DNA of 58,509 nt, the filler included, from Dugesia japonica (lineage: Eukaryota), in assembly GCA_001938525.1 (NCBI GenBank). It is 5 parts of 5 records of this genome, joined end to end, with 100 filler letters (N's around TTAATTAATTAA, not from the genome) between each part and the next. Parts side by side here need not be neighbours in the genome. Positions count along the whole stretch, not along the records: positions 1 to 13,014 come from MQRL01618438.1; 4 more parts are not named here. One strand, 5' to 3'. This document shows positions 1 to 52,785 of the stretch, piece by piece. Positions within the stretch are counted from its first letter, which is position 1. Each line of letters opens with the position of its first letter. A program made the translations under genes and the position numbers. The notes beneath the pieces are model-generated. The model was given only the letters and a program-made list of their open reading frames with translations, was not told the origin of the DNA and made no database searches.

Positions 1-539
1 AATACCTCAGGTTTAATAATTGACGGGAATAACTAGATCAACAGAGAAGGAGATTAAATTCATTTATTAAAAATGCTAAAACCCCAACATAATAATCAAT
101 TATTTATTTTATTTTCTTTTTATTCTTAGTTTAAGATTCAATACATTTGTTGGGGTGAGACACCCATTAGAGAAAGAAAAGAGTCAGAAAGATAAAAGAA
201 AGAAATAAAAGAAGGAGACCCTCGACAACTGAAGAATCAATAAATTAATGATAAATATAAAATCGAACGAAGAAAGAAAGCAATGATAAATAATTAAAAT
301 CAAACATCAAAAAGTAAATAAGAAGAGATATGAAGAGGAAAGAGAAAACAATTAAGGACGTAACAAGAATCATGAATATCCAGCGGTAATGAGGAAAATT
401 CCATAAGAAATAATTAAATTATATAAAATATTGGGGAAATAAATCAAATAAATAAAAAGAAAAATTAACCTGAAAAGGAGTAATTAATTAAGAAGAAAAT
501 TTGAAAAAGGGAAATAACTTCCCAAATTATCGGAGAAGG

Positions 540-3500
540 TCGGGGAAAGAAAATTCGAGAAGCCGACAAGTAAAGGAAATCCATTTCATTAGGCGAAAAA
601 TGATACCGTCTTCAGGAAAAGGTCGGAAAGTTAAGACAAACCACAAGGAAGAAAAAAGATAAAATACAAAGCAAAGAAAGTCAGGTGTCTAAAATTAGGC
701 ACCAATGAAATACAAAGAAAAATAGAGAAAAATCTGGAAATCAGACCAAGGACCAATAAGGAAGCTTGAAGAAAAACTAAAAATAAAAAACCAATGTTAA
801 GAGAGTCAGGGTGCGAACAGAAAACTATTTAAACCCCTCAGAAAATAAAGAAAAACAAAAAAAAATTTCAAATTTTATACTATAAGAGTGTGTATTATTA
901 TCAAAAATGACTAACATATGAAGCGAATTAAAGTGGAAATTATCTAACGATTGTGGAACGAAAAGAAAAAGAGAAATTTAACGAACAAACTCCGTTTGAG
1001 CAAATATTTATGAGTTTCTTTCAATTGTAATTTGGTTATAAAACTAATATATCATTTAATAAACAGTTGTTCATTTATTATAAATTATTCCACTGAGAAT
1101 CATATATGCAAAATTGAACAGTTTTTCTGGCTAAATTCACTGTTATCGTCTCAGACTAATCAAATAAGTCGTTCACTTGGCCAGAAAGTTGCATTACCCG
1201 ATAATTATATATATATCCACACACTCACTCGTATATTGACTCTACTACCAGACACGATAGTGATCATAGATAGATTATTGAAATGTCTGATAAGTGTAGG
1301 CATAAAACTTAGTTGTTAAGATATATCAAGACTGCGTTCAGTATAAACACCAGCGGATTGTATTGGATGAATCAGCCCCACCAGACAACTCGTTGTGTAG
1401 TATGAGCATTGTCTTACTACCTCGTCGAGTAACAACACGTAATTCGAAATTATGGCCATCATTAGTGTTGTAGGATAAGAGTGCAGCAACAACCAAACGG
1501 CTTAGGATCACTATTTTCGTTTGCACACCACCTATCAATGAATAGACCCAAATTAATGAGATGAGTTATTAATGACAGTTATCTATAAGCAGTAGGTGTG
1601 CCAATAGCTAGTGTAATAGAATCGCAATCTACTCATGGAATTATGATTCACCCATGAACTATTAGTTTTTCGTTTACCACTTGACATTGTGAGATCATCC
1701 CAAATTATATGTATTATTCCTCTCGTTATTAGAGGGAATAAGAGGTTGTATTAATTATAATTTTCTTAGCATTATCATCATTCTTATTAAAATTACTATT
1801 ATTATTCTTATTACCAATATTGTCGTTATTATTGTAGCAATCATGAATAATAAAATATTAAATAATTGGTGATTATAAAACAAAGTATTAAAATAGCTGC
1901 ATATCTGACAGGCCCTAAACAAAGGCTCAATAATACATATCAGTAATTATTAGTTAAATTATGTTAATAGTATAAAGTTGTAACAACAAAAATATTTATC
2001 TGAATTTGAAAAGCGACAAAACATATAATGTTATTTAATGATATGGACGAGTAATGGCGATAGATGAAAATAGACCCATTAAATAAAAAGCACAGATCAT
2101 TTCAAATGGTGAGAAGCCATTCAATAAATGATCCACANNNNNNNNNNNNNNNNNAAAACTTTAATTGATTAAATAATAATTTAAACACTTAGCAAAATTT
2201 ATCAAATTTTAAAATTAAAGTAAATAAGAGTTTCTGATAATTATATTTGAAAATAGAATCAATTTAAAATTTTACGGAGTAGATCCCGAACCCCTCATTC
2301 GTTTCGTTTTAGAGAAAGTTGACGTGCGGCCAATTAGTGATCGGCATAACAGAATCATTTTTATTGGTAGATTTGCGAATACAGAATTATCTCGAAATTT
2401 TGTATTTGTCAATGTTTCATTGGAAGATTCATGAGTGCAAAAATTTTTGGATTGATCATAATTTGATAAAACATTTTATTGGATCTTTCTCTTTGTGAAT
2501 TTGATGTTTAGTGTGTATAATTGGTATATATAACGAATGTAATTTTGCAAAAATTCGCCAAATTGGTCGAAGATTTATTTTGAAATAAATCGGTTTATTG
2601 TTATTCAAATAAAACTTTGTGGATTTTCGAGTTAGTATTACTGTGAACAAAGATTTTTCTAAAGTTGGGTAATCGATTATTTACGTCTATTCTGTAGACG
2701 CAATTAAATTTAACTTTGTGGAGTCAGCGAACCCAACATTATTAACATTATTATTATTGTTATATTTATTATGAATTTCATTCTTACTATTATTACTATT
2801 CTCATTATCAGTATTGACCATTCTCTTTACAATTATGAGTATCTGTAACGTTATTATTTCTATTACGTTTGTCCACGTTACTGTTACTATTATCGTTGTC
2901 ATTATTATTTATAGTAATACGATGATGAGAACCTTAATCGAATTACTTTTGGCAACCTAACGAATTTTAATGCAAACATTATTTTTCTGGGGTACTTCCA
3001 TTACCGCTGACTGTGACAGGGTTGTTTTTCGGTTATTGTTGGACATTAGTAGGTGTGTTCCTAAATTAAAATCAGCATTATGTATGGTCATCACTGCTAG
3101 GAACACAACCGATTGATATTAGTAATTTTATTGTTGTCATCATCATCCACACTATAACTAGGACTTCCGCTGATAGTCTCCCGAAACCTGTTACTTTTCT
3201 CTCATTGGCTTATCGATTTAATTTGTATTTCATTATTTTCTTTTAGGATAATATCAGATAATCTACTTGCCACTTTACGATGGATCCGTCACGAAAGAGA
3301 CGCAGAGCGACGAAGGCAACTGATTGTCCATTTATTATCCAAAGGACTGATTGAACTTTCGGACGAAATAGATCTTGCGTGTTTCAGGAAAATGTTTCCT
3401 TTGAAACAGTTTACTACCTACCCTGACACTAACATCTATTTGATATTAATAAATTAACTGTTTAACTCATTAAAAGTGTTCATGTTTTCTTTTATTATTG

Positions 3501-3645
3501 ATATCTTATACTCGTTTAGTGAACTATGTTATATTTAGTGACCGATTACCGATGGAAATTAGTATTAGACGCATGGTTTTTAGGCGGTTCAAAATCCCGC
3601 ACAATAAAAACACCGGCATTTTGACCGATAGTTCCAATTTCCCAA
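540..3645. repeat. Copy A of an unclassified large repeat/element: A-rich block, degenerate minus-strand ORFs, plus-strand mini-ORFs
   Basis: Collinear similarity to copy B: 630-840 vs 6378-6560 (ttaagacaaa...caggtgtc...caccaatgaaata.aaagaaaatagagaaaatctg); SDEIDLACFRKMFPL (~3358) vs ADETDLSCFLEMFPL (~7933); RMVFRRFKIPHNKNTGIL vs RMVYKRFTNPYHRNVGIL. Boundaries approximate. Confidence 0.7.
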
Positions 3646-3679
3646 GTTTTTTCAATTTCATGTTTTTTTTGTTTTTTTG

Positions 3680-3960
3680 TGTTTTTACACTACAGAAAAA
3701 AACATGAAGAATTACTAATTAAAGAAAACAATCTAAAATAAATATAATTTATAATAATTAAAAAATTAAATTTAAATTAACCAATTAAAATTTAGTAAAA
3801 ATAAATTTATCCAAAGAAAATTACTATTATAAGAATAAATATTGAATAAATTAAAAAGTCAACTCCTGAAGAAGACTAAGTCGAAATATCGAATTGTTAT
3901 CAAATATAAATAAAAAAACAAAAAAATTTGATCGAAGCTTTTATTCTAAATGAATTTATG
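3680..3960 (+). mobile_element. Penelope-like element 3' end / pseudo-LTR fragment
   Basis: Homologous to the reverse complement of 30130-30500 (cact.caga.aaaaacatgaa, cctgaagaagac, tttgatcgaagctttt), which lies directly downstream of a GIY-YIG remnant; contains a hammerhead motif. Confidence 0.65.
3860..3896 (+). ncRNA. Minimal type I hammerhead ribozyme motif (Penelope-type)
   Basis: caactc-CTGAAGA-a-GAC-taa-GTC-GAAA-tatc-gaattg: core, stem II, palindromic stem III, and stem I with 5/6 pairs. Confidence 0.7.
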
Positions 3961-6900
3961 ACTACACTATATATAATTTTTCTATTGATTTAAGAAGTAT
4001 ATAAAATATAATTAAAAATTTAAACCGTAGAAGATATATTTTTTTGAAATTTACAGAGAAAAATTAGATTGAATTCAGTTTGTGACATTTTTGGAATTAT
4101 TGATTTTCTGCGAGGTAAAAATTTATCATTAATAAAATTAAATTACTCAACTCGTATTGATTATGTTTCAATTAAATCCTTTAATTGTAAAATATAATCT
4201 CATGGTCGAAATTGATCAAGTTAAGGTTTAATTAAAATCTCGAGAACAAACTTCAAGAAAGCAAGCGTTTTGCTAATAAATTAATCAAAAGTTTCCCTCC
4301 AATTTTCACTTTTCTATTAAGGCGTTGTGCTAAAACGGTACATCCAACGTTTGCTTAGTTTTGGCAAATTGATCCTTGTTAATTCTGTGCTTCATAGGTA
4401 TAACGGTTTGTAAAATTTAAATAACTTTAGTCAATTTTTATAAACCATTTGTAAACGTTTATTGTCATAATTGAAATTAAAGTTTTGAAAATTTTTGTGT
4501 TTGCTTTCAAATTTTTATATTATTTTATTATAATATCTAAAATTGCATAGTTTTTAGTATAAAACACAGATTAAGATAAATTGTTCCTTCCAAACTCTTG
4601 AAATTTACCGAAACCGGAAATTAACTGATTTTTGACTCAAATCTGAGCACGTATTGTGAGGAAATCTATGTTAAAGTTTAAATAGAAAATCACAACCTAC
4701 ATTTATTGATCCTCATAAATTTATGCAAAGAAATCGAACAAATGATTTTAGGTTGATAAGTTAAAAATCAAGACATTTATGAAATTGGAAAAAATTAATT
4801 AAAAATCTGAAAATTAAAATTAACTTAACTCAATCCAATTGAAAATTAATTTGTAAAGTGGAACCAACATGTTACAGTAAGTCGACCGTTAAATGAAGAA
4901 CATTTAATAAGATTAATTGAATTAGGAGCTAACAATATAAATAGAACAGATTGTGAGAGTTTTATCGACATATGCTTGGGTTCATTTCAAGATTTATTAT
5001 GAAAGAAGCAATTATTGATGAATTCTAATTCTATTTTTAGATTAAATTGAATGTCATAAAGATTAAATTGGATGACCAACTATGTATGATCAATATTGCC
5101 ATTAAATTAGTTCAAACTAAAACACCTAGAATAGCTTCAATTTAATTTCACCGTTAAATTATTAAAAATTATGAAATCACATAAGTTTATTAATATTCAA
5201 ATAACGTAAGTAGATTAAATATTACATTTTAGATAGTTGAAACGGTATTTTTCATTTAATTAAATATACTCAACTAAATTTAAATTCAAATCTGAATTTA
5301 ATAATAAATTTTTACATTTATTACCTTGACCCTGAATAACCTTTTAGGTTAATATAGCAAATACTTTGTTACCTCGACATATTTTCATACTAAACGTATG
5401 TGTTTAGCTATTCCTTTTATTGACTGAAATAAATGCATTAAAATTTATTTCAAGAATAATAATAATAACCATTTAATTGATGATTTCTTTTAATAATCAT
5501 AAACGTAAACAATTATTAAAAGAAACAAATATCCAAATTGTGAAGAAAATAAATAAAATAGCAAATAAGTCAATTTTATTTGTAAACTAAAAAAATTGTA
5601 CTTAACATGAATAATAATTTAAATGATTAAAAGTTAGATGGAAATCTGATAAAATCCATAAAATTAGTTAAATTTAAAATATTCTTTACTCCTAGGGCTT
5701 TATATATTAAAAATTATTTACTAAAATATTCTGTAAATATTCCGAATTTCAAAATTGTATTTCGGTATTTTAAAATTATAAATGCGTTCAGTAATAAGGG
5801 TAAGACTTCTTGTGGATTAGTTTCTAATCTTATTTATAAAAATGAGTGTAATGCCACATACATTGTGGTAAATTAATAATCTCTTAAATTCTAAAAGCAG
5901 CCTAAAGCGGAAATAGTATTTAAATTAGTGAAAGCTCAAAATAATGGCAGATTAATAGTAATTTCAACTTCAAAAAAATCCATGATTAATTAATTATCTA
6001 AGAAATTATAAAAAGATCAAAAATATAGAGGAATATCAAGAAAATAATAAAAGTTTATGTTAAAAATAACAGCAAATTAACCATAATTAAAACGAAAACA
6101 CAAGAATATTCAAATCAATTATTTAGTATGAAAAATAAAAGCAGAAATCAATAAAGAAAAATTAATTAATTATTACTAGAAAAAGAAATTAATTACGACG
6201 AAAATCAGTAAAAGACGGATAACCTTTCAGCGGATGGTCAAAAATCACTGGGTCAAGAAACACTGGAAAGCTCTTGATGGGAGAAATTCTATTTTAAGAA
6301 GGAAAAAATGGTAACTCTTTTATTTAGGTTAGGAAAAGGCTTCAAAGTCCGAGCCAATGATAAGTTAAGGAAACAAGTTAAGACAAAGGCAAAAAAGTCA
6401 ACAGGTGTCCAAGAATAGACACCAATGAAATATAAAGAAAATAGAGAAAATCTGTGAATCTTAGAGAAGGCACCAATCAAAATTCTAAAAGCTGAAACAA
6501 AAATAGTAATGGTGAAGAAGTCGGGTTGTCTGAAAGATGGTATAAAAACCCGCAAAGTTTTAGACAGTTTACCCTCATTTTTCAAGAAAAAAAATTCAAG
6601 TCGCACAGAAAGTTCTAATTTAATCAAGGAATAGAAAAGACTGTGAAAAAACCCTCATCGTTCAGTGAAATTTATTTTAAGAAAAGTTTCTATTTAGAAT
6701 AATTCAGTTGCAGGAAGCTCAAGTCAAGAACATAAAGGAGTTGCAAAATAAATTAATTGGAAGAAGTCTATTATTACAGATAAACCCCTGTAATTGGAGC
6801 CAACAGTTTTATAAAACATGGGAATTCGTACTAGGAATTGTCATACTTCGTTATTTGAGATGATCAACATTAACCAGATTATTATTATTGTTGTTAATTT

Positions 6901-8152
6901 ATTTTTTATAAATCTATTATGTTTACCAAATTTTTATCACCATTGTATTATTGATAATTTAATCATGATACTTCTAGTCGGAATAATTTTTATATTTCTG
7001 TCATAAAAGTTAATAACGAAGATAGGTAATCCACCGGCAGTAATACGAACTAGTTCACCAATATCACCAAATCTATGCGGTCTATATGTTATGATAGATA
7101 TTCTTTGGGACACGATGGGCTGAATAACTAGTTGATTTTAGTTTCAGGTAGAATTTTACTCATTTGGTGTTACAATTAACAGCTAATAATAATCTTTGTG
7201 TTTTTGTAGTGTCTAAAGTAACGAATGTTTTTAGGACGTTATACCATTTTAAACATGGCCACGAAATAATCGATTTTTGATTGCATTTAGACCACAGATT
7301 TTCTTATTTTCTTGATAACTTATAATTATGTGGTAAAATTAATATTAGTTAAATGTCGTCCATGGAATATCCAACATACTACCATTATTATCTTTTAATA
7401 ACATTATTGGCATCATTATTAGTGGTGATGTTGGTAATAAACATATTTTTCTCTAAGTCTCTGGGTTAAGCAATACCTTGGTCATCACTTGAACTATTAA
7501 TTGAACTCTTTTGGTTTTAATCATTACTCTCATTTAGAAAATGCCTGCAGAATTCAAAAATGCCTTATGTCTCATCCGTAAAGCGAGAAAGCCAAGTCGT
7601 CTAAAACAGATAAAATTTTAAAAATTATAAGGTTGAAAAATAAATAAATATATATGTAAAACAAAGATATTTTAAATTAAAGTNNNNNNNNNNNNNNNNN
7701 NNNNNNNNNNNNNNNNNNNNNNNNNNNNNNNNNNNNNNNNNNNNNNNNNNNNNNNNNNNNNNNTAAAAAACCAATATTAATGAAAAATATTTTATTAAGA
7801 TTTCTCAGATTATTTGTTTGAAATTTGTGAATTGTTAATTCATATTTTTATTTTTAAGAATAGACTTGTAATAATCAATAAACAATTTATGGAGACTTGT
7901 GAGACTTTAAATTTAACTAATAGGGGGAACAAGCAGATGAAACAGACTTGAGCTGTTTTCTGGAAATGTTCCCTCTTGGACATGATGTTGACATAGATCG
8001 TGAATCGTGAATTAGGATATCTCTGAATTATTTGATGTTTAGTGAAAAAAAGCCTTTTGTGTTAATTTGTTGACTTGTCTTGTATGGTTGATATCTTTAT
8101 CTAGTTATTATAGATTTTTTGTAAATGTGGTTCTTATTCTACTACTTGTTTA

Positions 8153-8434
8153 GTGAACCAATATCGGCGGAGTTTAGTTTTTGATCGTCCCACCAGCCGT
8201 ATGGTATATAAGCGGTTCACTAATCCGTATCATCGGAATGTTGGAATTTTAGTAGACCGATTAAATCTACCGCCGGAGATTGCTGATTTTGAAAGACAAT
8301 GTGATGCGGTATGGCGACAGGCTTATTACAATTGGACAGGTCCTGAAAGTAACCTCCCACTTGTACCTCCATCTCCTACTCGTGAGGAAATTATAAGTGA
8401 CTATTTGTGGAGTATTAGAAACTCCATCAGTTAA
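8153..8434 (+). CDS. Mini-ORF 1 (93 codons), unknown protein; paralog remnant at 3538-3645
   Basis: Open frame starting at tttag|TG; AATAAA ~30 nt after the stop; protein-level conservation with copy A. Confidence 0.55.
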   Translation: MNQYRRSLVFDRPTSRMVYKRFTNPYHRNVGILVDRLNLPPEIADFERQCDAVWRQAYYNWTGPESNLPLVPPSPTREEIISDYLWSIRNSIS

Positions 8435-8652
8435 TTTTGTGTTTTTTTTTCATCTTCTGGTCTAAAATAAATGTTTCTTGTTATAGTCTATCTATCTTTT
8501 CCCCTTAATGAGGTTCATTTTTTGTGATTAATGAAGTGAATTATTATAATAACTATATTTTTGTGAGACTTTCTTAAGATTATGATGTTAATTTGGTAGT
8601 TATGATTAAATGTCTTGCTAACTATCGTTAATTGTTCTTTTATTGTTATTCA

Positions 8653-9012
8653 GTGTGTCGTCTGCTCAATCACTCCGTCGCTCCAACTAAAAAGTCGCTA
8701 GATGATAGTGAGGACATTGAAATGACCTGTGAGGTCTATTAACTCATGAAACGGCGTGAGTAAGTGGTTGTTGCGGTAGCTCAGGCTAAAGTTAAACGTT
8801 TTAAACGCCGATGTTGGAACAGCTGTCAACAAATGGAGGCTTCACACGCCTAGGAGCGTGCCTGGAAGACTCAACTTAAACTCTTTGCCTACATAATTAA
8901 TTCGCCTCACGAGAGAGATGTTGAACTCGTCGCGGATATTCTCGAGTTGCAAAAGCAGATACCCTTCGAGCCATTGTACATAGTTAAGCATATACAAACT
9001 CCTCGGAGCTAA
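8653..9012 (+). pseudogene. Mini-ORF 2 (120 codons, 3 internal stops), unknown protein
   Basis: Single frame from ttcag|TG to TAA 9010-9012; higher GC than flanks; CTAAC branch-like motif upstream; AATAAA ~9045. Confidence 0.5.
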
Positions 9013-9169
9013 CAACTGAACTTTATTGTTTGAAGTTTCCTAGAAATAAAATTGGTAAAGCGAATTTGTCTTGAATTGTCTTTTGCTCATAACGATAAAC
9101 CCCCTAATTTGATTAGTTGTTACGATTTCATGCTGTTGTGATCATTACTTATCTTTCAATTTATATTTA

Positions 9170-9523
9170 GTGCCACGAATCGGTTTGCCGAACTTCTTAC
9201 AGCGATGCCATAAACTCTTAACTAAATTTATCATAAAAGACACTATTCATAAAGGTGTGAAAGATCCCTCCTCCGACACTTGTTCCAGAGGAATCGTCTT
9301 ATAAAAAATGGAAATCGTAAACAAAAAACAAGATGAGCTTGCGAGGCAAACAAGGGACATCCTCGTCAATAAGATAAATTTCCTCAAACAATATATAGTG
9401 GATTTAATTGCCATGTTGGAGATTAAAATTCGGACGCCCTGGAACAGTGAGGATGACGAGGCCGCGTTTAACTTTGCGGATGACGCGCCCCTCAAATGGC
9501 TCGATCCAGGAGATTTAGATTAA
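9170..9523 (+). pseudogene. Mini-ORF 3 (118 codons, 1 internal stop at 9302), unknown helical protein
   Basis: Frame of ORF 9308-9523 extends back to tttag|TG at 9170; AATAAA just after the stop (~9529). Confidence 0.5.
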
Positions 9524-9789
9524 TTATGAATAAATTTTCCTTAATAAGGAGTTATCTTCGTTTTATGAATTATGAGGAATTATGAACCCGAATTAAAGGT
9601 ACGCGGGTATGAACTCTAATTTAACGTTGGGAGTCAACGGTCCTGTACAAAAAACCTAAACTAAGGACTTTATGTAAATTTTTCGATGGGTCCCCTAAGG
9701 ACTGACTTTTCCTCCAGCCATATTTTTCCAACACTAACTCAAAGGGAACCCCAACACATTGCCTAAAGAACTTTTTTCGAAAAATGTTT

Positions 9790-12700
9790 CATGGATGATA
9801 AAAAAAAGGATGCAAATAAAAGTTAAAGAATGCAAACTAGCCAACTTGGAAGAGATATTTGAAACAATAAAAACAAATGTAAACTAAAGAAGGACCTAAA
9901 AGAAACGGACAATATAAATATAACAGAGAGTTACACCAATGTAGTAAGAAGAGGCATTGCAAAAGAACATTTTTCAGGAGTTAACCGAACTCAAAGTGGA
10001 GCTAAAAAATAAATTATATGTTGGTCATGTCAAAAGATAGGTCATATCAGCAAAGGTTGTCCCGAAAAGAAAAGAACGTGTTATGCATGCGGATCAGAGA
10101 ATCATGTAAGACGAAATTGTGACAAAATTAGATGTTCAAGATGTGGAAAAAATAGACATCATACAGAACAATAGTATACTAATTTGGAGAAAAGAAGTGT
10201 ATGGATTAATAAGAGAAGACAGCAGAATAAAGAAAAAATGAAATGAAGCAGCACAATACAACCGAAGAGAGGAAACAAACAGAAGATATGATGATAATAA
10301 CAGATTCCAAAACAAAGTGGGAGGACATCAGCCAAAAAAGGTTTCAGGAGAAGAGACGTCAATAGAAGATAACAAAGAGAGGAGATAATATTTTTTATTA
10401 CGATGAGGAGATAAACAGATATAGAGAAAAGACCCCAAACAGACAAGCTCCATCCAAAGTTGAGATGATTGAACCAATGAACTAAAAAACTATCCAGATC
10501 GCGATATACATGTGTATAGTAAAAGTAGTTAAATTAACAGTATAAAAGATGAAAGTAAAGGGGAAAGAGTAGACAGAAAAGTTTATGCATTTTTAAAGAA
10601 AGATTACAGAGATATGTAGAATACAGATATCAAGATAATGAAAGAAACGAGAAATGATGATAACAGAATAATATTATTAGAAAAGAATGAACAAATACAA
10701 ATAAATTATTACAGAATGCAATGTAAGCCCAGTGTAGAAGTTAGAATTCAAGTAAGATACATGGACTGTCTTTTAAACACAGGTGCAAAGATAAACGTAA
10801 TGAGCCTAAATATATTTAGAAGTCTGGTAAATGTGGAGCTTATAGGAACTGATGACGTGTTAAAATTTGCAAATAATAGCAGAATGAACATTTTGGGAAG
10901 ATATATGTAGAAGTGGAGATTGAAAACAGTAAGAAAACAGTACAATTTACAGTAGTAGAAAAAATGAGTCTGAATCTTGTTGGAGAAATAGACATTCAAT
11001 GCCAGTTTGGATACCATTTAAAGAAAGAAACAGAGAATTACGAGGATGAACAGTGTATCTGCAACATAGACGCAAGGTTTGGTCGGAAAATTGAGGATGT
11101 TGAAAGAGAACAGAGAGCTTTAAGAATTTTGATGACAAAACGAGACGAGAAACTGGAAATGGTAATAGAACTACATTGAGGAGTATTCATGGCAGATAAC
11201 TGGGATGTTGGATGTACAATTGTGGCAGAACACAAGATAGTGACAAAAGATTTTCTCCAATAAATACGAAGCCTTGGGGACAACCCATGAATCTAGAAGA
11301 AAAATAAATACGGCCATAAAAAATTTAGCAGACGCTATTATAAGAAAATGTAATTCGCAGTGGAAAACACCACTGATTTGCGTCTGTAAGAAAGAAAAAA
11401 AGGATGTGAGACTTTATTTAGACTTCAGGAAACTGAATGCAGTTAGGAACGACAGGCCGTNNNNATGACAAACATGGAAAAAATGTAAGACAATTTTTAT
11501 GGAGCTAAATATTTTAGTACCATAGACTTAAGAAACGCGTATTACCAGGTACCGTTGGAAAAAGAGTCACAAAAGAAAACAGTCTTTTCGATAAAAAATG
11601 GCCAATATTGCTTCACAAGAATGCTATTTGGTATAGCAGCAGACCCAGCAACTTTCCAAGAACTTATAACGAAAGTATTGGAGGGTCTAGATTGAGCAAT
11701 GGTGTATATAGATGACATAATGGTATACTCAGAAGGATTAAAAGAGCATTATATAACTTTAGGTCAGGTATTAGAGCGGATCCAAAAGGCAGGGCTGCGA
11801 GTGAATCCAGATAAATGTCACCTAATACGCAAAGAAGTGAAATTTCTTGGTTAAATAATAGATAAAGAAGGAATTCGAACAGATCCAATGATAATCGAGG
11901 CAATCAAGAATTTGGTGAAACCCAAATGGGTAAGGAACCTGAAAAGCTTACTCGGAATATGCAGTTATTACAGGAGATTCATCAAGAATTATTCAAAGAA
12001 ATCAAGAGCCCTAGAAGAAATATGTGGAAGCAACAGCACCAAGCTAATATGATCAGATGAATGTGAGAAAGCTTACGCAGAAATAAAACAATCACTGATA
12101 GAAGCACCTATTCTAGAATTCCCTGATATAAATAAGATAATTATCTTAGATACTGACGCTAGCTTCGACGCAATAGGAGCGGTCCTATCACAAAAAGATG
12201 ATGATGGAAGAGAAAGAGTTATTGCTTATGGCTCACATGTAATGACATCTCATGAGAAGGGTTACGTATCACACGGAAGGAAGTACTATCAATTTACTAC
12301 TTTTGCAACTGCTTTAAACATTATTTATATCGGAAAAAATCCATAACGAGGACAGATCACAAAACCATCGAATTCATTGAAAAGACAAACAAACCGATAA
12401 AACTTCACTTCTATAAATGAAAAAATTACCTTAGCAACTTAGACATAGAACTAATATATAGACAAGGCAATAAACACGCAAACGCAGATATGCTCTCAAG
12501 AATGAATTGCGGAACGGGCACTCAATGTCAAATGCAACACGAGAATTCAAAGATGGAGAAGATGAAAACAAGATATATAAACCAGATGATAAAGATAGAG
12601 AGATGTAAATGGCAAGAGCGAATAGAGGAAATCAAACTAATCAAACGAAATATTCAAGAAGGAAAGGATTACAAATATAGAGTCTAAAGTAATATAGTGA

Positions 12701-13014
12701 AAACAAGTGATGGGAAAATCTTTATTCCAAAAGAGAAAATAATATCAATGATCAAAGAGATACATACATTATTAATACATGCAGGAACAGAGAAAACGAT
12801 CAGCTACATAAACAACAACTACGACATGAAAGAACTGAAGAAGGTAATCACAGACGTGATAAAACAGTGTGAAGCGCGCCAAAAGAACGAATTCAATACT
12901 GTGGCAACAAAAATGACAACAGTAAAATTAAGGGCAAATTTTCCATTTGAAAAGATATACATTGGCATATGTGGGCCTTTTCAAAAGACTGTGAACAAAC
13001 GAAGATATATATAT
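9790..13014 (+). mobile_element. Degenerate Ty3/gypsy retrotransposon (gag C-half, protease, RT, RNase H, integrase N-terminus)
   Basis: Three CCHC-type knuckles (CWSCQKIGHISKGC, CYACGSENHVRRNC, CSRCGKNRHHTEQ*) at 10019-10175; CLLNTGA; LDFRKLN; IDLRNAYYQV; YIDD (~11705); DTDAS; integrase HHCC region. Order PR-RT-RH-IN with many stops and frameshifts. Confidence 0.93.
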
Positions 13015-30129: not shown

Positions 30130-30900
30130 ATTGATCGCATTTGAGATTTCATTAAAATGAAGAAAAAGCTTCGATCAAAATAAGATGTATTTGTAAAGAA
30201 ATTCAAATTTTCGACACTTGTCTTCTTCAGGAATGATGACTTTTTGATATATTCAATAGAGCAATAGATCTTTACAACAAAATTCTTTATCTTTTATCAA
30301 AATTTTATTGGTCTATTGAAAGTAAAATTTTTTTATTTTAAAATTTAATCTCAGAAAATCTTTTTTATTAACATTAAAATTTTACAATATTAAAACTCTA
30401 ATTTTTTACTAATTTTTTTTACAATTTATTAATTATTGAAAATCTTTGAAAATTTTTAATTAATATTTGTTCATGTTTTTTGTCTGTGAAGTGTAGAAAT
30501 ATAGCCTGTTCCTAATGTTTGCCATGTAATATGACGACTTTCTGGTTAAATATTATGTTTGTTTTGAAAGTGTTTTAAGACTTCACTTTCTTTCTATTTA
30601 AGATGTTCTTTAATTCTTGTAGGGATGGTTCTCCACGATTCTCCTATATATGTATACTTACATCAGGTGAATATCATTTTGTAACTGATATTTTTATTAT
30701 TTATTTTTATTATTTATTTTTATTATTATCCTTTACCATCACAAATGCATTGGAAACCACAAAAATTCTGTCTTGGTTTCTGTAATTTAAAGATTTTCAA
30801 TAATTAAAATAATTAATAAATTTAAAAAAATATTAGTAAAAAATTAGAGTTTTAATATTGTAATATTTTAATCTTAATAAAAAAAATTTGTTGAAATTAG
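30130..30900 (-). mobile_element. Truncated Penelope-like element with an inverted pLTR segment
   Basis: GIY-YIG remnant YTYIGESWRTIPTRIKEH (~30600-30660); hammerhead at 30201-30234; 30790-30900 is an inverted copy of 30345-30445. Confidence 0.8.
30201..30234 (-). ncRNA. Minimal hammerhead ribozyme motif
   Basis: Minus strand: attc-CTGAAGA-a-GAC-aagt-GTC-GAAA-attt-gaat. Confidence 0.7.
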
Positions 30901-30901
30901 A

Positions 30902-31550
30902 TATACAAATTATATAGACAAATTAGATATCAAACTAGCTTCATATTTTACTAATAAAATTGATTTTGTATATCACAATCTTATATATCAAATGGAGAAA
31001 TTCTACGAGAAAACCGTATCAAATTGTTATAAAATAAATAGACAATTGTTGCGTACAAAAATGGTACTAGCTTCTATTAATCTATATTTGATAACAGCAT
31101 TATTGTTCGAAGAAGCAAGAACTTTTGGGAGAACTGTCGGTGAAGCATTATTAACTTTTAAATGTAAAATCACAAAAGTTACTTTAACAGACAGCCCAAA
31201 ATGTACAAATAAACTGCCAGTGAAACATAATTATAAAAATGTCTTTTTATTATCAGTGACACGAATTTTAACAGATGAAAATTATAAACCCAAGGAAATT
31301 AATAAATGTAGTAACCTTCTTGACTCACTATACAAAATAAACGATGACGTTAGGATCACTGCTTTAGATCGTATAACAGCACAAAACCTGCTGTATTAGA
31401 GATACTGGAACTCCAAAAAAGAATGGTATTTGATAAACAATACAATATGGAAAATACTGCTATATATACTCAGGACATGGGCTGGCCAAGGAGATAGTAG
31501 AAGGGAATTGTTGGGATGTTCTATAATAATTAAGTAGGATGTGGATATGA
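30902..31550 (+). pseudogene. Chuvirus-like glycoprotein fragment (endogenous viral element or retroelement env)
   Basis: Frame open from 30902: LDIKLASYFTNKIDFVYH..QMEKFY...NC..NRQLL...LAS...GEALLTFKC..V......CTNKLPV......FL...TRIL.......CSNLL...Y; after a frameshift, AIYTQD. Cys spacing and motifs match recalled chuvirus-G-like sequences. Confidence 0.65.
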
Positions 31551-36789: not shown

Positions 36790-37534
36790 AAGTCCATTTT
36801 TTCCACATCTTGAACATCGAATTTTTCTCACAATTTCTTATATGATTCTCCGATCCACATGCGTAACACATTCATTTCTTTTCCGGATAACTTCTTCTGA
36901 CATGACCAACATGTAATTTCTTTTTTAGCTTCACTTTGAGCTCGGTTAACTCCTGAGAAACGTTCTTTTATCACGACTATTTTTACTGCATTGCTGTAAC
37001 TCTCAACTGTATTTATATTGTCTGTTTCTTTCAGGTTCTCCTTTATTTCATCATTTGTTTTTATTGTTTCAAATATTTCTTCTGAGTTCGCTAGTTTGCC
37101 TCCTTTAATCTTTATTTGAATCCTTTTATCGCAGCAACTATTGAATATTAATTCTTTTGTCATCTCTTCTTTGTCTAGTTTGTGTGCAAAGATTTCATCG
37201 ACCAGTGTTAAAGTCTTTTTCTTGTTCATAAACGTGTTCATCCGTTCTCTTGTATTTAAAGCTTCCTTAAGTCTTGTATTAGAGTAGTCTTTTTGTGGAA
37301 CGCTTTTCTCAGTCGGTCCTCAAAATCTAATAATTCATTTTAGCATTCATATGGTTCTCTTAATTCTTGATCAATTAAGCCAACTACCAAGAGGTTTTTA
37401 TCCTTTTTCTTTACACCAATACATTCGAAGTATTTGGTGCAACCATTGATATACTGTTCAATGTCGTACCAGGCCGGTAAATTCCTGGCTGTAGGGATTC
37501 TCCAATGAGGTCCATTGAAGCGTTGGTCGCCATG
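36790..37534 (-). mobile_element. Ty3/gypsy gag fragment with putative primer-binding site
   Basis: Gag closely similar to 9790-10150 (EEIFETIKTN...FSGVNR.QS.AKK.I.CWSCQK); ...aactaaCA|TGGCGACCA (37532-37524) just upstream of the gag start MDLIGESLQPG. Confidence 0.8.
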
Positions 37535-38261
37535 TTAGTTACAGATAAACTTTCTGAAAACTCCATTAAGTTCAAAAAAATTTTATTTATAAATGAAATT
37601 TCAAATCTTCAAAATACTATATTTTTAAAAGCTGAATATTTAAAAAAAGTTTTTAAACATTTTCTTCTTTAAACTTTAAATAGTAATTTTCAATTTTTAA
37701 TCCTTACAATACTATTAATCTATAAATAAATAATTAAATTTTTTTTAAAGGAAATAACTCCGAATAGTCTCTAAGTATCTAAATATCTTATTAGATATTT
37801 ATTGAAAATTATTTTATCTTAGTTTCCTGTTGTGCATATCGATTAGTTGAGTTGTAAAATTATTGAAATCTACATGTATTATCATGTTTTAAAATTTCTA
37901 TAAATAACATTTGCCTAAAAACAGCTTATAAACAATTTTATTAGTTCTAATAAAAAGATAAATTACAAGGGTAGTTGTGAAGATTTGTATGAAGTTAAAA
38001 TTTAGAATTTTTAATTTTAAAGAAAGTGACAAAATTATGACGTTATAAAGGTGTCTTAAATAAGTAGATTTCTTAAAATCGAAGTTCCATAACTGTATTA
38101 TAAATTTAATATGGTAAATCTATAAATTGAAGTTATTGAAGGTAATTGAGAATTTAATATTCAAGTGTTCAATCCAATTCCTTGCTAATTAAAGAGTAAC
38201 ATTTTGCGATATTTGGAAAAATACCCCGCCCAAAATACGAAACTTAAATTACAATTTATTT

Positions 38262-38411: not shown

Positions 38412-39024
38412 AATTATCCAAATTAAATCCAAAATTTTAAATTGATTCTTAAGATTCTATTTTAAATTTAAAATGAATTAAATTTATTTTAAAGCTACAA
38501 ATTTTAAATTGTTTTTTTGGGACTTTAGGAGGAATTTCTATAAAAGAACCCCATTTAGTTAAATATTAAATTTTCGTAATAGCATATTATTCGTGTTCTA
38601 AAATTAATGTCACTCAAACATCTTACCGTAATGAAATACAAACGAAACGAAATGAAAAATTAATAACAATAATTGAAATAGATTCAACCAAATAAGTCTC
38701 ACTGTCATCTTACGATTGATTAACATATAAACAGATTTTGTATTTAAAATTATTTCTAAATTAATCTGGTCATCGTTTTATCATGACAATGTTTGCTGAG
38801 ATCTCTAAAATTTGCAAAAATATTAATTTTTGTATTTAATAATAAATACACAAAAACTATCCTTTCGATTTAATAGATTCTATTTCCAATTTATTAAATC
38901 TTGAAAAATTACTCGATTATTTCTGACATAAATATTCGCGTATCAATCGATATATTAACTATGTAATAAATATCACTGTAATGATTTATATAATTACTGT
39001 TCTATTATTATTAATCGCTTTAGA

Positions 39025-40039
39025 ATGATGTTATTGAAATTGTCTGTGATCACAATTTTCACTGTTGTTGGATTGTATTATTTATCAGTCTATATTAAAG
39101 GCAATCTGTGTCATTTGAAGGATCGAATAGATGGAAAAATTGTTCTTATTACAGGGGCAAATNNNNNNNNNNNNNNNNNNNNNNNNNNNNNNNNNNNNNN
39201 NNNNNNNNNNNNNNNNNNNNNNNNNNNNNNNNNNNNNNNNNNNNNNNNNNNNNNNNNNNNNNNNNNNNNNATAAATGCACAAGTGGATGATGATAAAGTT
39301 TTTACACATTTACTTGATTTGGCATCGATGAAATCAATTCTTGCTTTTACAAAACAATTTAAAGAATCTGTAGATAAATTAGATATTCTAATTAATAATG
39401 CTGGAATAATGATGTGTCCATATCAAGAAACAGTGGATGGTTTTGAAATGCAAATTGGAGTTAATCATTTAGGTCACTTTTTGTTNNNNNNNNNNNNNNN
39501 NNNNNNNNNNNNNNNNNNNNNNNNNNNNNNNNNNNNNNNNNNNNNNNNNNNNNNNNNNNNNNNNNNNNNNNNNNNNNNNNNNNNNNNNNNNNNNNNNNNN
39601 NNNNNNNNNNNNNNNNNNNNNNNNNNNNNNNNNNNNNNNNNNNNNNNNNNNNNNNNNNNNNNNNNNNNNNNNNNNNNNNNNNNNNNNNNNNNNNNNNNNN
39701 NNNNNNNNNNNNNNNNNNNNNNNNNNNNNNNNNNNNNNNNNNNNNNNNNNNNNNNNNNNNNNNNNNNNNNNNNNNTTTTGATCTGAATATGTGATTTAGT
39801 ATGGTGGTTTTATACTAGGATATTTTATGAGGACGCCATTTGAAGGAGCTCAAACATCAATTTGTTGTGCCGTGAATCCGGATCTTCATCAACATTCTGG
39901 GGAATATTTCAGCGATTGTCAACCTTTGAAACCTCAAAATCCACAAGTTTATAATGAATCATTAGTTGAATTTCTTTGGGAGCACAGTAATAAACTTATC
40001 AATTCAAAATTGTCATCGGTTTATCCAAATGAACTTTAA
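39025..40039 (+). CDS. Retinol dehydrogenase 11/12/13-like short-chain dehydrogenase/reductase (gapped; probably at least one intron)
   Basis: N-terminal membrane anchor; [10 protein letters not shown]; LDLASMKSI; [14 protein letters not shown]; [16 protein letters not shown]; C-terminal [14 protein letters not shown]...SGEYFSDC...LWEHS. The catalytic YxxxK falls in an N-gap. Confidence 0.92.
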
Positions 40040-40485
40040 CAACGAATTTAGAATAAATTTACAATGAAATTTTTATAAATTTAACTTTTACTTGAGTTAT
40101 GTTGTCATGAGAAACATTTTCATTGATTTTTTGGAATAGTACTTCTTTGTTATATGATACCATTTTTTGGTATTAAATCATTCCAGTTGAATTATTAATT
40201 ATTGTTATTATTGTTCGACGAGTTTGTAGTACTCATTGGATCATCAATATCAAAATTCAATTCCATAGGAAACTTTATTCAAAACTAAACTATAAACATA
40301 AATTTTCTTTTTTTCATACAGAAAATTAATTCGCATTTAAAAGCGAAAAATACTAAATAATTTAATTTTCAAATATTTATTTATATTCAATTTCAAAATA
40401 TACTAATTTCGTTTTAAAATGCAAAAAATTTAAATNNNNNNNNNNNNNNNNNNNNNNNNNNNNNNNNNNNNNNNNNNNNNNNNNN

Positions 40486-44620: not shown

Positions 44621-44812
44621 GATGTCGGCCATTGCTCAAGAGGACTGTGATAAAGCCAGGTCTCTTTCCTTTAGTTTCGCGTTGGCATCGCGTAACGAGG
44701 AGTTCTTTCGTTGCAGAACTACGATTTTAGAATAAAAGGTTCTCTGGGTAGTACACCACTTCTTTTAAAAATCCGATAATGGTGTGTCGGTCAGCTTCCT
44801 GGTGTTGGGCAC
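44620..44812 (-). pseudogene. Mini-ORF remnant starting at tgcag|TG, truncated by the gypsy element
   Basis: (x)TG-PNTRKLTDTPLSDF*KKWCTTQRTFYSKIVVLQRKNSSLRDANAKLKERDLALSQSS*; coiled-coil-like. Confidence 0.4.
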
Positions 44813-45129
44813 TGCAATTATTGAGAATTTAATATTAATCTTGAATTTATATGGGTAATTATAATGCGAAATTGAAATCATATGATGTTCATTAAAATTT
44901 ATTAATTAATCAACATTAAAATTTAACAATGAAATCAGTGATGTGTAATAATCGAGCTTAAACTTTACCATAACTAATCTTATTATTATATTATTTCCTC
45001 ACCGAATTTTATGCTCACAATTTTCTGACAGAAAGAAAGCAATTAAAATCAAACTATATTATAATAGAAACAAAGAAAATTGATCAAACAATATCCTCTT
45101 CCTCATACAACGGAATCAGTATTTGTTAT

Positions 45130-45586
45130 AATGTATTTTCAACTTTAGTAAATAATCGGTCTGACATTTTTGAATGCTCTTCCTCCTCGCGTTTTGTAGC
45201 ACGTAACGCCTTTATCAACTTTTGTTGCTACTGAACCAGTTCGATGGAGCGAGCGAGCAAGGTAACTAATTATTTTTCACGAGCCGCTCGTTCTTCCACT
45301 AATTCTCTGATTCACTTTCGATTTGTTTGATCTTGGATGTCCACCCGTTCTTGTAATTGATCAAACATTGTCAGCTTGTGCTTTAGAACATTTGGTAAGT
45401 CTGCTGGACGATTTGTTCTTTCAACCTGATGATCTGCATATCTTTCAATTTAAGTTTATCTTGCACAATCCACCATGGATCCGCATCTGTGCCTTTCGAT
45501 CCGAGTGAATCCCATAAAGTCGGCATGTTGTTGCATGGTTTTGCATTAAAGAAACACCCCTCGTCTCTCAGTAAATCTCTGGCCAT
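45130..45586 (-). pseudogene. Degenerate ORF of unknown function
   Basis: 67-aa ORF (45383-45586) continues as coding-like, higher-GC sequence with stops and frameshifts. Confidence 0.35.
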
Positions 45587-46689
45587 GGTTTTAGTGATAT
45601 GACGAGACTTCTAACTATACAAAACATTTTGAATATTAAAATATTATGAATGATAATTCAATTCTTACTAATACCTAAAACAATCACAATGACAATATCA
45701 ATTTAATAAAGAACTAAATTAATCCAATTGCTATCGCAGAATACCGATTATTCGTCATGGGTGGAAGGAGTAAGATCTTTTTTATCTGAGATGTCTCAGA
45801 ATTTATCATAAGCTACGTAAGTTCAAAATTTTATATTCATTCCTTTAGGGTTTCATATCTTCTCATGATCTGTATAAAGTTCGTTTAACTAGACATAATC
45901 CTTTGAAAACCCATCTCTTCCCTCATAACAAATAGTTCTCTTGCATTATCATGACAAAATTCTAAATAAAGTGGTATCAATTTTATCGCTAATTATGCAT
46001 GAAAATTATTTATAATATTAATCATAATTATACACAAAAGAGCGTGATGTTCATTTATAAACGACTTAATATTTTCATCACAAGTATAATCACATCATAA
46101 CAATAACAGGAATAAATCATTAGAAAAGAAAAACATTTAGAAAGGAATCAACCAACACCATCAATAATATCTCGATCTCTTGTACCCTCTATCCTCTCTC
46201 ACAACATCTCGATCATATACATATGCATTTATTAGCTCGCAACAATTCTTTCATCATAATAATTCTCTACTAACAACTGTTAATACTCTAATTCAACAAC
46301 TGCTATGATCTCACTCATCCAACATTTAGTCATAACTCACTTACAATCCTTCATCTTCCATATACATCTGCATAAACGCTCCGTTCACGTAACTCTTAAT
46401 ATCTCTCATCAACATTTACACTTCGATTCTCGTAAAGTCGTTAAAATTTTAATGTTACTCCTCACATCTCCATAAACATTTAACACCCACATCTCACAGA
46501 TCATATAAATAAATAGGGATGGATCATCTCGTGTCATCCAAATCTCTGAGTCCTAATGCCCATCGTTGCCAGCGTGGCTAGTCAAAGATAAACATCATCA
46601 CAGTCTTCCGTTCATATATTAAAATTAACAATCTAATAAAGTTACTTCAGATCGATTCCTTTCGAAAAATCTTGAAATATATTAACGAC

Positions 46690-47699: not shown

Positions 47700-48700
47700 C
47701 GTATTTCACTAATGATTTGTGAAATCACTGAATTGTTTATTTTTGACAGATCATCGGCTCAAAGTGTTATTGAATATGGGTAGTTTGAAGATGTGTTTCT
47801 AATGAGTATTATTTCTGTTATATTTGAAAAGAGCAAACTCTGTAATATGTTTGGAATCAACAGCTGATGATTAAAGTATGTTAATAAACAAAGTGTCACA
47901 ATTAAAGCCCTTGGAATTTCAGAATGGTAGACAAGAAAAGGCTCAACTTTAAAATCACTTTCTGTATTTCCTTCTAGACCACGTTTATAATGATGTTTAC
48001 TAATTCTGTATCCAGGTCAAGATATTTCAGATGAAGAAATATGTGTTCTTCGCCGCATTCGTTTCCAAAGCAGGCCAGTCTTATCAACTTTCAAAACCTG
48101 CTTAGCATATAATTCATTTTACTCAACGATCGCTTTTAATTCACTTCAAACTTTGTTTGCAACTAAAACACTCGCACGGGTTAATTCTTATTTTACTGCA
48201 TTGTAAAATTGCACTAGTTTCGAAACGTTCATACTAGCCTTCCTAGCTAACAATTTTTCTAAAGATCCAATGTTCAATAATATGAAATTATTTTTAATTT
48301 CATTGAAAATACTTAAAGCTTTTTTTGAATCATCATTTTGCTGAATGACATTCTTCATTTGATTTTGATTTTTTATCCAAATGCTAAAATGGGATTTCAC
48401 TTTTAATAAAACTGAATTTCTCATCTTTGTTCTTTACTTTCATTGTGATAGTGAAGTCTCATTTTTAATCAGGATCTCGATTACAAATTTAATTTACTGT
48501 ATTAGATGCTCAACCGAGACTTATTCTAATATCAACAATCCTTTCCAGATTTAAAACGTTTGCAAACTTCTAGTTTGAGTTCCCACCAAATAATTATTAT
48601 AAACTCCAGTAACTAATCAATATTTTATTAAAATTTTCGATTAAAACCATTTCTTTCATCAACAAAATAAAGATTAATCAACATCCGTACAAAGCTATAC
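47700..48700 (-). mobile_element. pogo/Tigger-like transposase remnant
   Basis: VLKVDKTGLLWKRMRRRTHIS (DETGLFWK-like); GNTESDFKVEPFLVYHSEIPRAL (GNAxGDFKLKPLLVYHSENPRAL-like). Confidence 0.75.
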
Positions 48701-48739
48701 ACAATAACTCTACTAAATTATTTTCCGCTCTCGCGGGAC

Positions 48740-50160
48740 GTATTATAGGAGCATTTGGAAAATATTCTATTTGTCTTCGGACAGCATACAACTGGTTTCA
48801 CAAATTTAGCAGTGGTCAATTTGTCATCAACGATCAGCCAAGATATGGTCAGCCGTCACTTGTTTATAATGACCTTATTTGTATCTGTGTTGAACTCTCG
48901 AAGAAGTTTGGCGTCAGTCACACTACCTGTTTGCATCATTTGAAGAAGATTGGTAAGGTCAGTAAATTGGACATATGAGTACCATACAAGCTGAGCAACT
49001 TCGACCGTTAACGCCGTATTGAATACATGCTTGTCATACTGTCAAGATAGCGTCGTTATGATTGGCTCAATAAACTGATCACAGTAGATGAAAAATGTTG
49101 TCTGTTTTCTAATAAAATGATACGCAAAAGAAGCTGGGTGGACAAGAATACAAGCTTACTACCTCATTTAAAGGCCAACCGGCATCAAAAAAAGATAATG
49201 GTTTGCGTTTGATGGGATGTAAAAGGTGTGATTCCCTGTGAAATGCTGAGACGTAATCAAACTGTCCATGCGGAATTCTATTGCCAACAACTGCAGTGGG
49301 TGGCAGATGCAATTGCCCAAAAGTGACCAGAATTGAATAAAACAATGTTTCTGCATGATAATTCTCGACCGCAGGTTGCAAACATGANCAGTGAAAAACT
49401 TTTGGAGTTGGAGTGGGAAGTTATTCCTCATTCACCTTATTCTCCAAATTGGCACCAACGGACTATCACTTATTCCAGGCCTTGCAAAACTACCTGAATC
49501 TTCATAAGTTTGCAACTGATGACGATTTAAAATCTGCAGTTGGAGGCTTTTTTGACAGTAAACAAATGGACTTTTACAACAAGGGCATCAATGACGTAGC
49601 CCATCGTTGGAAGTATGTCCTTCAAAATAATGGCGATTACTTTAACGATTTATAAATTACTTATTCCTGCNNNNNNNNNNNNNNNNNNNNNNNNNNNNNN
49701 NNNNNNNNNNNNNNNNNNNNTGCCCAAAAGTGACCAGAATTGAATAAAACAATGTTTCTGCATGATAATTCTCGACCGCAGGTTGCAAACATGAGCAGTG
49801 AAAAACTTTTGGAGTTGGAGTGGGAAGTTATTCCTCATTCACCTTATTCTCCAAATTGGCACCAACGGACTATCACTTATTCCAGGCCTTGCAAAACTAC
49901 CTGAATCTTCATAAGTTTGCAACTGATGACNNNNNNNNNNNNNNNNNNNNNNNNNNNNNNNNNNNNNNNNNNNNNNNNNNNNNNNNNNNNNNNNNNNNNN
50001 NNNTAGCCCATCGTTGGAAGTATGTCCTTCAAAATAATGGCGATTACTTTAACGATTTATAAATTACTTATTCCTGCATTTCTTCTTTGAATTTCAATGT
50101 ATTTATCATTCTATTTTGCTATCAATAAAAATTGTGCAAGAACTTTCTTTCCAAAACGTC
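48740..50160 (+). mobile_element. Degenerate mariner (DD34D-type) transposon
   Basis: ITVDEK; KKIMVCV*WD; FLHDNSRP; WEVIPHSPYSP/LAPTDYHLF; multiple stops; the 3' ~360 bp is duplicated across a gap. Confidence 0.9.
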
Positions 50161-50973: not shown

Positions 50974-50982
50974 AATAAAGTA

Positions 50983-52779: not shown

Positions 52780-52785
52780 ATATAT

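What the first reader, a model, noticed from the sequence alone, without database searches (positions are those of the whole stretch)
8120..9535. Cassette of mini-genes that may receive their start codon from a splice junction (A|TG)
Seen: three consecutive co-oriented ORFs (94, 120 and 118 codons including stops) at ~500-bp pitch. Each begins exactly at a T-rich tract + YAG followed by TG in codon positions 2-3 (AG at 8152-53, 8652-53, 9169-70). None has an early ATG (first in-frame Met at codon 17, 24 and 47), and each is followed by AATAAA. The copy A paralog also has tttag|TG (3537-3540). The ORFs look unrelated to each other, and TG is not the usual exon-side acceptor consensus. Inference: one shared leader exon ending in A is alternatively spliced to any acceptor to create AUG, giving a leader-plus-many-acceptors expression unit as in complex viruses. 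A leader ending in AUG (flatworm SL type) would be out of frame. Caveats: two other candidate exons (~3247, ~7859) do not start with TG, and I did not find the donor.
Basis: partly seen in the sequence, partly recalled or inferred. Interest (0 to 1): 0.75.

Follow-up and report, generated by a model that had tools for sequence, protein, structure and literature searches.

The report
Mini-gene array with splice-made start codons
A decayed, repeated, likely mobile element in an AT-rich genome carries three small unrelated reading frames in a row; each lacks an early start codon and likely gets one when a shared leader ending in A is spliced onto its TG, though no spliced RNA was seen.

Summary
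ORFs at 8153-8434, 8653-9012 and 9170-9523 each start at T-tract + YAG|TG, in the one frame where a preceding A gives ATG, and each is followed by AATAAA. ORF2 has 3 internal stops and ORF3 has 1. In one window-wide scan these were the only TG sites among 24 acceptor-like sites before GC-rich islands; allowing for hindsight, chance is about 0.0015. ORF1 is a real gene: copy A keeps the same AG|TG and frame with a codon-position pattern of selection (18/17/9 of 25), and a 94-aa homologue (41% identical) starts at the same place. A serial-exon model fails at ORF2, and a leader ending in AUG is out of frame. A second Gypsy element in the window has a similar CAG|TG ORF just before gag. Not shown: any spliced read (two RNA runs gave almost no coverage), the donor, the element's class and the proteins' functions. 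Best reading: alternative acceptors completing a split AUG, like gypsy env (AT|G) but in an array. About 50% likely; a new variant of a known kind.

The parts
8114..8153 (+). Acceptor 1: 38-nt AG-free T-rich tract ending TAG, followed by TG
8153..8434 (+). ORF1, 93 codons, open; first codon is xTG across the acceptor; homologues in copy A and in P0004
8466..8471 (+). AATAAA after ORF1
8600..8653 (+). Acceptor 2: 52-nt AG-free tract with a branch-like CTAAC 33 nt upstream, CAG|TG
8653..9012 (+). ORF2, 119 codons, broken by 3 stops; no homologue found
9045..9050 (+). AATAAA after ORF2
9117..9170 (+). Acceptor 3: 52-nt AG-free tract, TAG|TG
9170..9523 (+). ORF3, 117 codons, 1 internal stop; no homologue found
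9529..9534 (+). AATAAA after ORF3
7470..8010 (+). Probable ORF0 of copy B: acceptor-like TAG at 7536-37 with its own ATG at 7541, split by a high-copy insertion (about 7600-7922, with an N gap). The 3' part is clearly homologous to copy A; the 5' part only weakly
   Evidence: protein 763/5000 shuffles, not significant; DNA 43/1000 for the 5' part, 0/1000 for the 3' part
3178..3457 (+). Copy A ORF0: acceptor at 3245-46, 69 open codons, AATAAA at 3448
3520..3670 (+). Copy A ORF1: AG|TG at 3537-40 in register with 8152-55; frameshifted by a 13-nt gap after codon 11; cut off by a high-depth repeat near 3672
6289..7533 (-). Decayed long frame on the opposite strand, head-to-head with the cassette (17 stops in 414 codons); unidentified
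   Evidence: (1/500 shuffles, bounds chosen after inspection)
5929..6528 (.). A-rich segment shared with copy A (230-813, 63% identical); part of the same element
9804..13014 (+). Decayed Ty3/Gypsy gag-pol, co-oriented and adjacent; its gag lacks the 5' part seen in an 80%-identical paralogue, so it may be a separate element
44634..45620 (-). Parallel layout in a second Gypsy element: acceptor-like site 45611 with own-ATG ORF, AATAAA 44903, then CAG|TG at 44812 opening 58 codons (1 internal stop) in frame with the gag ATG two codons past its stop

Best explanation
The stretch is a decayed copy of a gene array in a multi-copy, likely mobile element, in which one upstream non-coding leader ending in A is likely spliced to any of several acceptors, so that A plus the exon's TG would form the start codon, and each unit would end at its own AATAAA. 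Each mRNA would be monocistronic and made only when splicing picks that acceptor. Unspliced RNA and RNA using another acceptor would have no in-frame start for that ORF, so splice choice would act as the on-switch, and one promoter would serve four unrelated small proteins (ORF0 with its own ATG, ORF1-3 with junction ATGs). Shown: the anatomy, coding signal, selection on ORF1, a same-length homologue, related copies. Inferred: splicing itself, the A-ending donor, use of the polyA signals, and that the host element is a Ty3/Gypsy-type retroelement with the array upstream of gag (about 45%, against about 25% for a DNA-virus-like element and 30% other).
For: Three of three acceptors are TG and in phase 1. 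They have AG-free zones of 38, 52 and 52 nt against a background of 13%, 7% and 7%. AATAAA follows each stop. Copy A keeps AG|TG in register: 22/33 nt over the first 11 codons, and in a later block codon positions are 18/17/9 of 25 identical; DNA homology 0/1000 shuffles. P0004 (94 aa, 41%, E 1.9e-10) begins with M one residue from ORF1's first codon, shares N-terminal residues with copy A (W, L, D) and has L where ORF1 has its first internal Met, so the codons before codon 17 look translated. Related DNA contigs at 79-86% keep the ORF1-2-3 order. A second Gypsy in the window has CAG|TG in frame before gag, 91 nt after an AATAAA. Precedent: Drosophila gypsy env takes AT from the donor and G from the acceptor (PMC2585583, passages; bioRxiv 2023.08.03.551782, passages).
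Against: No spliced read. RNA runs X10 and X13 (about 25% of each read, 80% likeness) gave mean depth of at most 0.31 in every bin from 7956 to 9467, and no RNA-supported joint among the 15 of 89 rows shown. No donor shared by both copies: 12 A-ending candidates upstream of copy A's ORF0, 2 between the copies, none aligned. Donors with A at -1 are the less common kind (recalled). P0004's start codon is unknown and may be a genomic GTG read as M by a gene caller. Conservation of TG between copies A and B alone is weak (about 0.4 by chance at roughly 65% identity). Acceptors 1 and 3 show no YTRAY branch motif. The second Gypsy's CAG|TG site did not pass my scan thresholds. The letters of the related contigs at the junctions were not shown (1110 rows hidden).
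Confidence: 0.5

Rival explanations
1. Same alternative acceptors, but the shared leader carries its own ATG and a short peptide and ends in phase 1 (as for ZAM/Beagle env); the TG only supplies positions 2-3 of a Met, Val or Leu codon.
For: Explains the shared phase, the missing early ATG, the conserved N-terminus and the separate AATAAA equally well. Splicing of env to a short upstream peptide is reported (passage).
Against: Gives no reason for TG at three unrelated ORFs (about 5e-4 for TG, 0.014 for any shared pair). ORF0 in copy B has its own ATG 3 nt past the acceptor, which fits a non-coding leader better, though that homology is weak.
Confidence: 0.2
2. An operon-like array resolved by polyadenylation plus trans-splicing of a separate leader RNA, which would explain why no donor is found in cis.
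For: AATAAA-to-next-AG distances are 187, 125, 90 and 91 nt, close to the ~100 bp mode for flatworm and nematode operons (PMC8629364, passages).
Against: Reported flatworm leaders end in ATG (PMC12582326, passages). That reads phase 0 and gives 0, 15, 16 and 0 codons before a stop, leaving the conserved N-terminus untranslated. It would need a leader ending in A, and the host taxon is not established.
Confidence: 0.12
3. No splicing: the ORFs start at the genomic GTG (non-AUG initiation) or at the first internal ATG, on RNAs cut at alternative polyA sites, like MDG1 sORF1/sORF2.
For: MDG1-group elements have two unspliced small ORFs upstream of gag with a polyA site between them (bioRxiv 2025.03.14.642691, section 7). 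GTG is present in frame.
Against: Long AG-free T tracts ending in YAG at each start. Many ATGs in ORF1 and ORF2 would block scanning to downstream ORFs. The internal Met17 is not kept in P0004.
Confidence: 0.08
4. The islands are serial exons of one protein.
For: ORF1 has phase-1 GT sites near its end (8382, 8397, 8412, 8430).
Against: ORF2 has no phase-1 donor-like site in its last 84 codons. AATAAA follows every stop. P0004 ends at about the same place as ORF1, but only near-length proteins were searched, so a fused form is not excluded by those.
Confidence: 0.06
5. Coincidence, or TAGTG/CAGTG are ends of CACTA-type DNA transposons.
For: TAGTG is the reverse complement of CACTA; the finding was picked in hindsight.
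Against: No matching inverted terminal arm within 3 kb (best 8-10 of 15). Hindsight-corrected chance about 0.0015. The frame is conserved.
Confidence: 0.04

Closest known systems
Drosophila gypsy / springer-subclade env (start codon split by an intron)
   Same: Start codon completed by a splice junction in a Ty3/Gypsy-type element (PMC2585583; bioRxiv 2023.08.03.551782; passages only).
   Different: There the split is AT|G, with one acceptor and one large env ORF after pol, and the junction was mapped. Here it is A|TG, with three acceptors, three unrelated ~100-codon ORFs each with its own AATAAA, no env likeness and no mapped junction.
MDG1-group sORF1/sORF2 (412, Mdg1, Stalker, Blood)
   Same: Small accessory ORFs (~110 and ~70 aa) upstream of gag with a polyA site between them (section read).
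   Different: Those are unspliced. Here there are acceptor-like sites and four units, and the link to the adjacent gag is uncertain.
Planarian Burro giant Gypsy elements
   Same: Gypsy-like elements with accessory ORFs, one upstream of the polyprotein in D. tigrina, and env resembling mononegavirus fusion proteins (PMC6431247, passages). The window has a PF24664 fusion-protein fragment on another scaffold.
   Different: No MATH, BIR, BCL2 or ankyrin domain in the cassette. The passages I saw describe no spliced mini-gene array. The primary Burro paper was not available.
HTLV-1 pX and C. elegans Cer1 CERV spliced accessory genes
   Same: Accessory proteins expressed by splicing to alternative acceptors (PMC6731619; PMC10309623; passages).
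   Different: In the passages seen, no per-ORF polyA signal and no start codon split across the junction are described.
SL trans-spliced operons (Macrostomum, C. elegans)
   Same: Co-oriented genes about 100 bp apart, each with an acceptor lacking an obvious cis donor.
   Different: The flatworm SL ends in ATG, which is out of frame here.

Membership tests
Errantivirus-type split-AUG env | Start codon formed at an experimentally mapped splice junction | tested here: inconclusive
   Near-zero RNA coverage in X10 and X13
Errantivirus-type split-AUG env | Spliced ORF is an F-type envelope downstream of pol | tested here: not met
   ORFs are 93-119 codons, have no Pfam hit and lie upstream of the adjacent gag-pol
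Errantivirus-type split-AUG env | AT|G split | tested here: not met
   Exons begin with TG in phase 1
Ty3/Gypsy LTR retroelement (cassette as its 5' region) | Co-oriented gag-PR-RT-RH-IN downstream | tested here: met
   Pfam zf-CCHC, RVT_1, RT_RNaseH, Integrase_H2C2; RVP weak at E 0.018
Ty3/Gypsy LTR retroelement (cassette as its 5' region) | Cassette and gag-pol belong to one element | tested here: inconclusive
   Gag homology to the 80% paralogue stops abruptly at 9804; copy A is truncated before this point; a second Gypsy shows a similar layout
Ty3/Gypsy LTR retroelement (cassette as its 5' region) | Flanking LTRs, PBS and target-site duplication | tested here: inconclusive
   No long direct or inverted repeat in 1-13014; the scaffold ends at 13014; no genome held
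MDG1-group sORFs | Homology to sORF1/sORF2 or an MDG1-clade pol | not tested
   No pol tree built; ORF searches returned no named relative
MDG1-group sORFs | Unspliced transcript with a polyA site between the sORFs | tested here: inconclusive
   AATAAA present; no RNA coverage
Burro elements | Giant polyprotein with MATH/BIR/BCL2/ankyrin and in-frame env | tested here: not met
   None of these in six-frame Pfam scans of the parts of scaffold 1 examined
SL trans-spliced operon | PolyA-to-acceptor spacing near 100 nt | tested here: met
   187, 125 and 90 nt; reference value
SL trans-spliced operon | SL-bearing reads at the acceptors | tested here: inconclusive
   No coverage, and no loose ends listed at these sites among the 24 rows shown
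SL trans-spliced operon | SL-terminal AUG in frame (flatworm type) | tested here: not met
   0, 15, 16 and 0 codons before a stop
CACTA-type DNA transposon ends | Terminal inverted repeats starting CACTA/G | tested here: not met

The most novel reading that the evidence does not exclude
A lineage of invertebrate retroelements (or a virus-like element) uses one A-ending leader as a universal first letter: alternative splicing writes the AUG for each of several unrelated mini-genes, each with its own polyA site, and possibly for gag too. Splice-site choice then becomes the translation switch of a modular, extendable accessory-gene array encoding three protein families of no known kind.
Probability: 0.4. 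Interest if true: 0.72.

Novelty: new variant of a known kind. Interest (0 to 1): 0.55.

Why it matters
If true, it extends the single split start codon known from gypsy env to a general way of adding genes to a mobile element: any ORF placed behind T-tract-YAG-TG becomes expressible from one promoter and is silent unless spliced. Such ORFs have no ATG and would be missed by ordinary annotation, so accessory-gene content of these elements may be undercounted. It also supplies three small orphan protein families, one under purifying selection. The claim can be tested with existing RNA data from samples where transposons are de-repressed.

Tried and rejected
No whole genome is held, so copies could not be collected. 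Run search: no RNA holder listed, which is no evidence either way. Homologue searches: ORF1 none by word search; one hit, P0004, by phmmer over 1.84 billion proteins with a query holding ORF1 and ORF3 in one frame (nothing for ORF3); only P0004 with the two-sequence profile; ORF2 none. P0004's DNA was not found in metagenome, viral or prokaryote contigs. No Pfam or PHROGs family for the ORFs. Atlas uninformative. PDB sequence hits absent or not significant. AlphaFold models were too poor to use (pLDDT 51 and 40); Foldseek on the first gave no match at E <= 0.001. Earlier-findings look-ups returned nothing. X17 contigs cross acceptors 3246 and 9170 unspliced, but that run may be DNA. CACTA ends rejected; LTR or Helitron ends at 9540-9800 were looked for by eye and were not convincing. 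Literature: searches turned up no description of an A|TG multi-acceptor array; I saw listings and selected passages only, read no supplements, and two primary papers (Burro, planarian PEVE) were not held, so absence from print is not established.

Full report
Setting. The window is a string of small scaffolds joined by N runs and spacers; the finding lies on the first (1-13014). GC is 29%, and the window is full of decayed mobile elements. No genome is held. DNA runs of three studies hold the stretch, and two contigs match this copy at 99%, so it is not an assembly artefact. The host is not identified. Composition and a Gypsy-associated mononegavirus-type fusion fragment would fit a planarian (PMC6431247 and PMC11410931, passages), but that is inference.

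Observation. All coordinates check. Each ORF begins at an AG-free, T-rich tract ending in YAG, followed by TG, and the open frame starts on the G of the AG. A donor ending in A would therefore complete ATG. ORF1 is intact; ORF2 has three stops and ORF3 one, a decay level like the neighbouring RT frame (4 stops in 272 codons). The islands are GC-rich with low GC at codon position 3. ORF2's openness alone is not significant (95/500 shuffles). AATAAA follows each stop at +32, +33 and +6. In a scan of both strands for acceptor-like sites before GC-rich islands, the three were the only TG cases among 24; other thresholds gave 2 of 12 up to 4 of 49. Allowing any shared dinucleotide and phase, chance is about 0.0015.

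The ORFs are genes of a family. A second, diverged copy of the element lies at about 230-3670. Its AG|TG at 3537-40 is in register with 8152-55: the first 11 codons align without gaps (22/33 nt), then copy A is frameshifted by a 13-nt gap, and the next 25 codons are identical at 18, 17 and 9 of 25 for positions 1, 2 and 3, the pattern of selection on protein. phmmer found one outside homologue, P0004 (94 aa, 41%, E 1.9e-10, from a 512-nt unnamed contig). It starts with M one residue from ORF1's first codon, ends at about the same place and lacks ORF1's internal Met17. Its start codon is unknown. DNA contigs at 79-86% identity cover the cassette in the same order. No family, fold or function could be assigned.

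The '7859' site sits in a very high-depth repeat that ends at 7922. The likely true start of that unit is an acceptor at 7536-37 with its own ATG at 7541. Its 3' half is clearly homologous to copy A's 3247 exon (0/1000 shuffles), its 5' half only weakly (43/1000 DNA, 763/5000 protein). An acceptor followed at once by an ATG fits a non-coding leader. So the array has probably four units, the first with its own ATG. No donor shared by both copies was found.

Rivals tested. Serial exons: ORF1 has phase-1 GT sites near its end, but ORF2 has none in its last 84 codons. AUG-ending spliced leader: out of frame, 0-16 codons, although the 90-187 nt polyA-to-acceptor spacing is operon-like, so a trans leader stays open. 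Unspliced translation as in MDG1 sORFs: upstream ATGs would block it. CACTA ends: no inverted arm. A short coding leader in phase 1 cannot be excluded, but it does not explain TG three times.

RNA. Two oligo-dT runs, a quarter of each read and laid at 80% likeness, gave mean depth of at most 0.31 over 7956-9467 and no supported joint among the rows shown. Neither this copy nor close relatives are measurably expressed in those samples, so the junction test is inconclusive, not negative.

What element. A co-oriented decayed Gypsy gag-pol follows at 9804, but its gag lacks about 330 nt present in an 80% paralogue, so the contact may be secondary. In favour of a Gypsy 5' region, another Gypsy in the window has, upstream of gag, an acceptor-like site with an own-ATG ORF, an AATAAA, and 91 nt later a CAG|TG opening a 58-codon frame in phase with gag; that site did not pass my scan thresholds. 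Against it, a decayed 414-codon frame on the minus strand starts head-to-head with the cassette and is unidentified, which would also fit a virus-like element with genes on both strands. No terminal repeats were found.

Comparison and verdict. A split start codon is known for Drosophila gypsy env (AT|G), and small ORFs with a polyA site upstream of gag are known for the MDG1 group. The combination here (several unrelated ORFs, A|TG, one polyA signal each) did not appear in searches or 92, of which I saw listings and passages only; two primary papers and all supplements were unseen. It works like gypsy env splicing but is not a member of that env class. Probability of the A|TG mechanism about 0.5; of some shared-leader, alternative-acceptor scheme (cis or trans) about 0.8. 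New variant of a known kind; interest 0.55.

Noticed in passing
window 44634-46580 (-): Gypsy element with a ~2 kb region between a PBS-like TGGCAACG and gag, holding an own-ATG ORF behind an acceptor-like site (45611) and a CAG|TG ORF in frame with gag (44812); possible independent case of the same design.
   Followed up: partly
window 30881-31399 (+): Monjiviricetes-type fusion glycoprotein fragment (PF24664, E 2.7e-20) at a scaffold end; env-like.
   Followed up: partly
window 50700-56200 (+): Unidentified decayed A-rich element with membrane-segment-rich frames and a 131-codon open frame whose ATG follows an acceptor-like CAG at 54611; no significant Pfam hit.
   Followed up: partly
window 6289-7533 (-): Long decayed frame whose ATG (7533-7531) overlaps the ORF0 acceptor tract on the other strand; hydrophobic C-terminal part; unidentified.
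   Followed up: partly
window 9540-9800: Segment between the last AATAAA and the gag homology; DNA depth rises here and it holds a textbook acceptor-like run near 9702-9718 not followed by TG. Could be a terminal repeat or a separate repeat.
   Followed up: no
window 8684-9165: A DNA contig of run X2 joins 8684 to 9165 (ends not GT..AG): a relative lacking most of ORF2.
   Followed up: no
window 38959-40040 (+): Short-chain dehydrogenase host gene, gapped by Ns (PF00106).
   Followed up: no
window 48613-50080 (+): Mariner transposase remnant (PF01359) with an exact 407-nt-offset duplication between N gaps, probably an assembly artefact.
   Followed up: no
window 5610-5865 and 20528-21700 (+): 68% similar pair; the longer one has a weak RT hit and looks Penelope-like (recalled, not tested).
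   Followed up: no
window 36792-37540 (-): Gypsy gag paralogue whose first ATG overlaps a CA|TGG LTR-end/PBS-like junction, 20 nt after an acceptor-like CAG.
   Followed up: no
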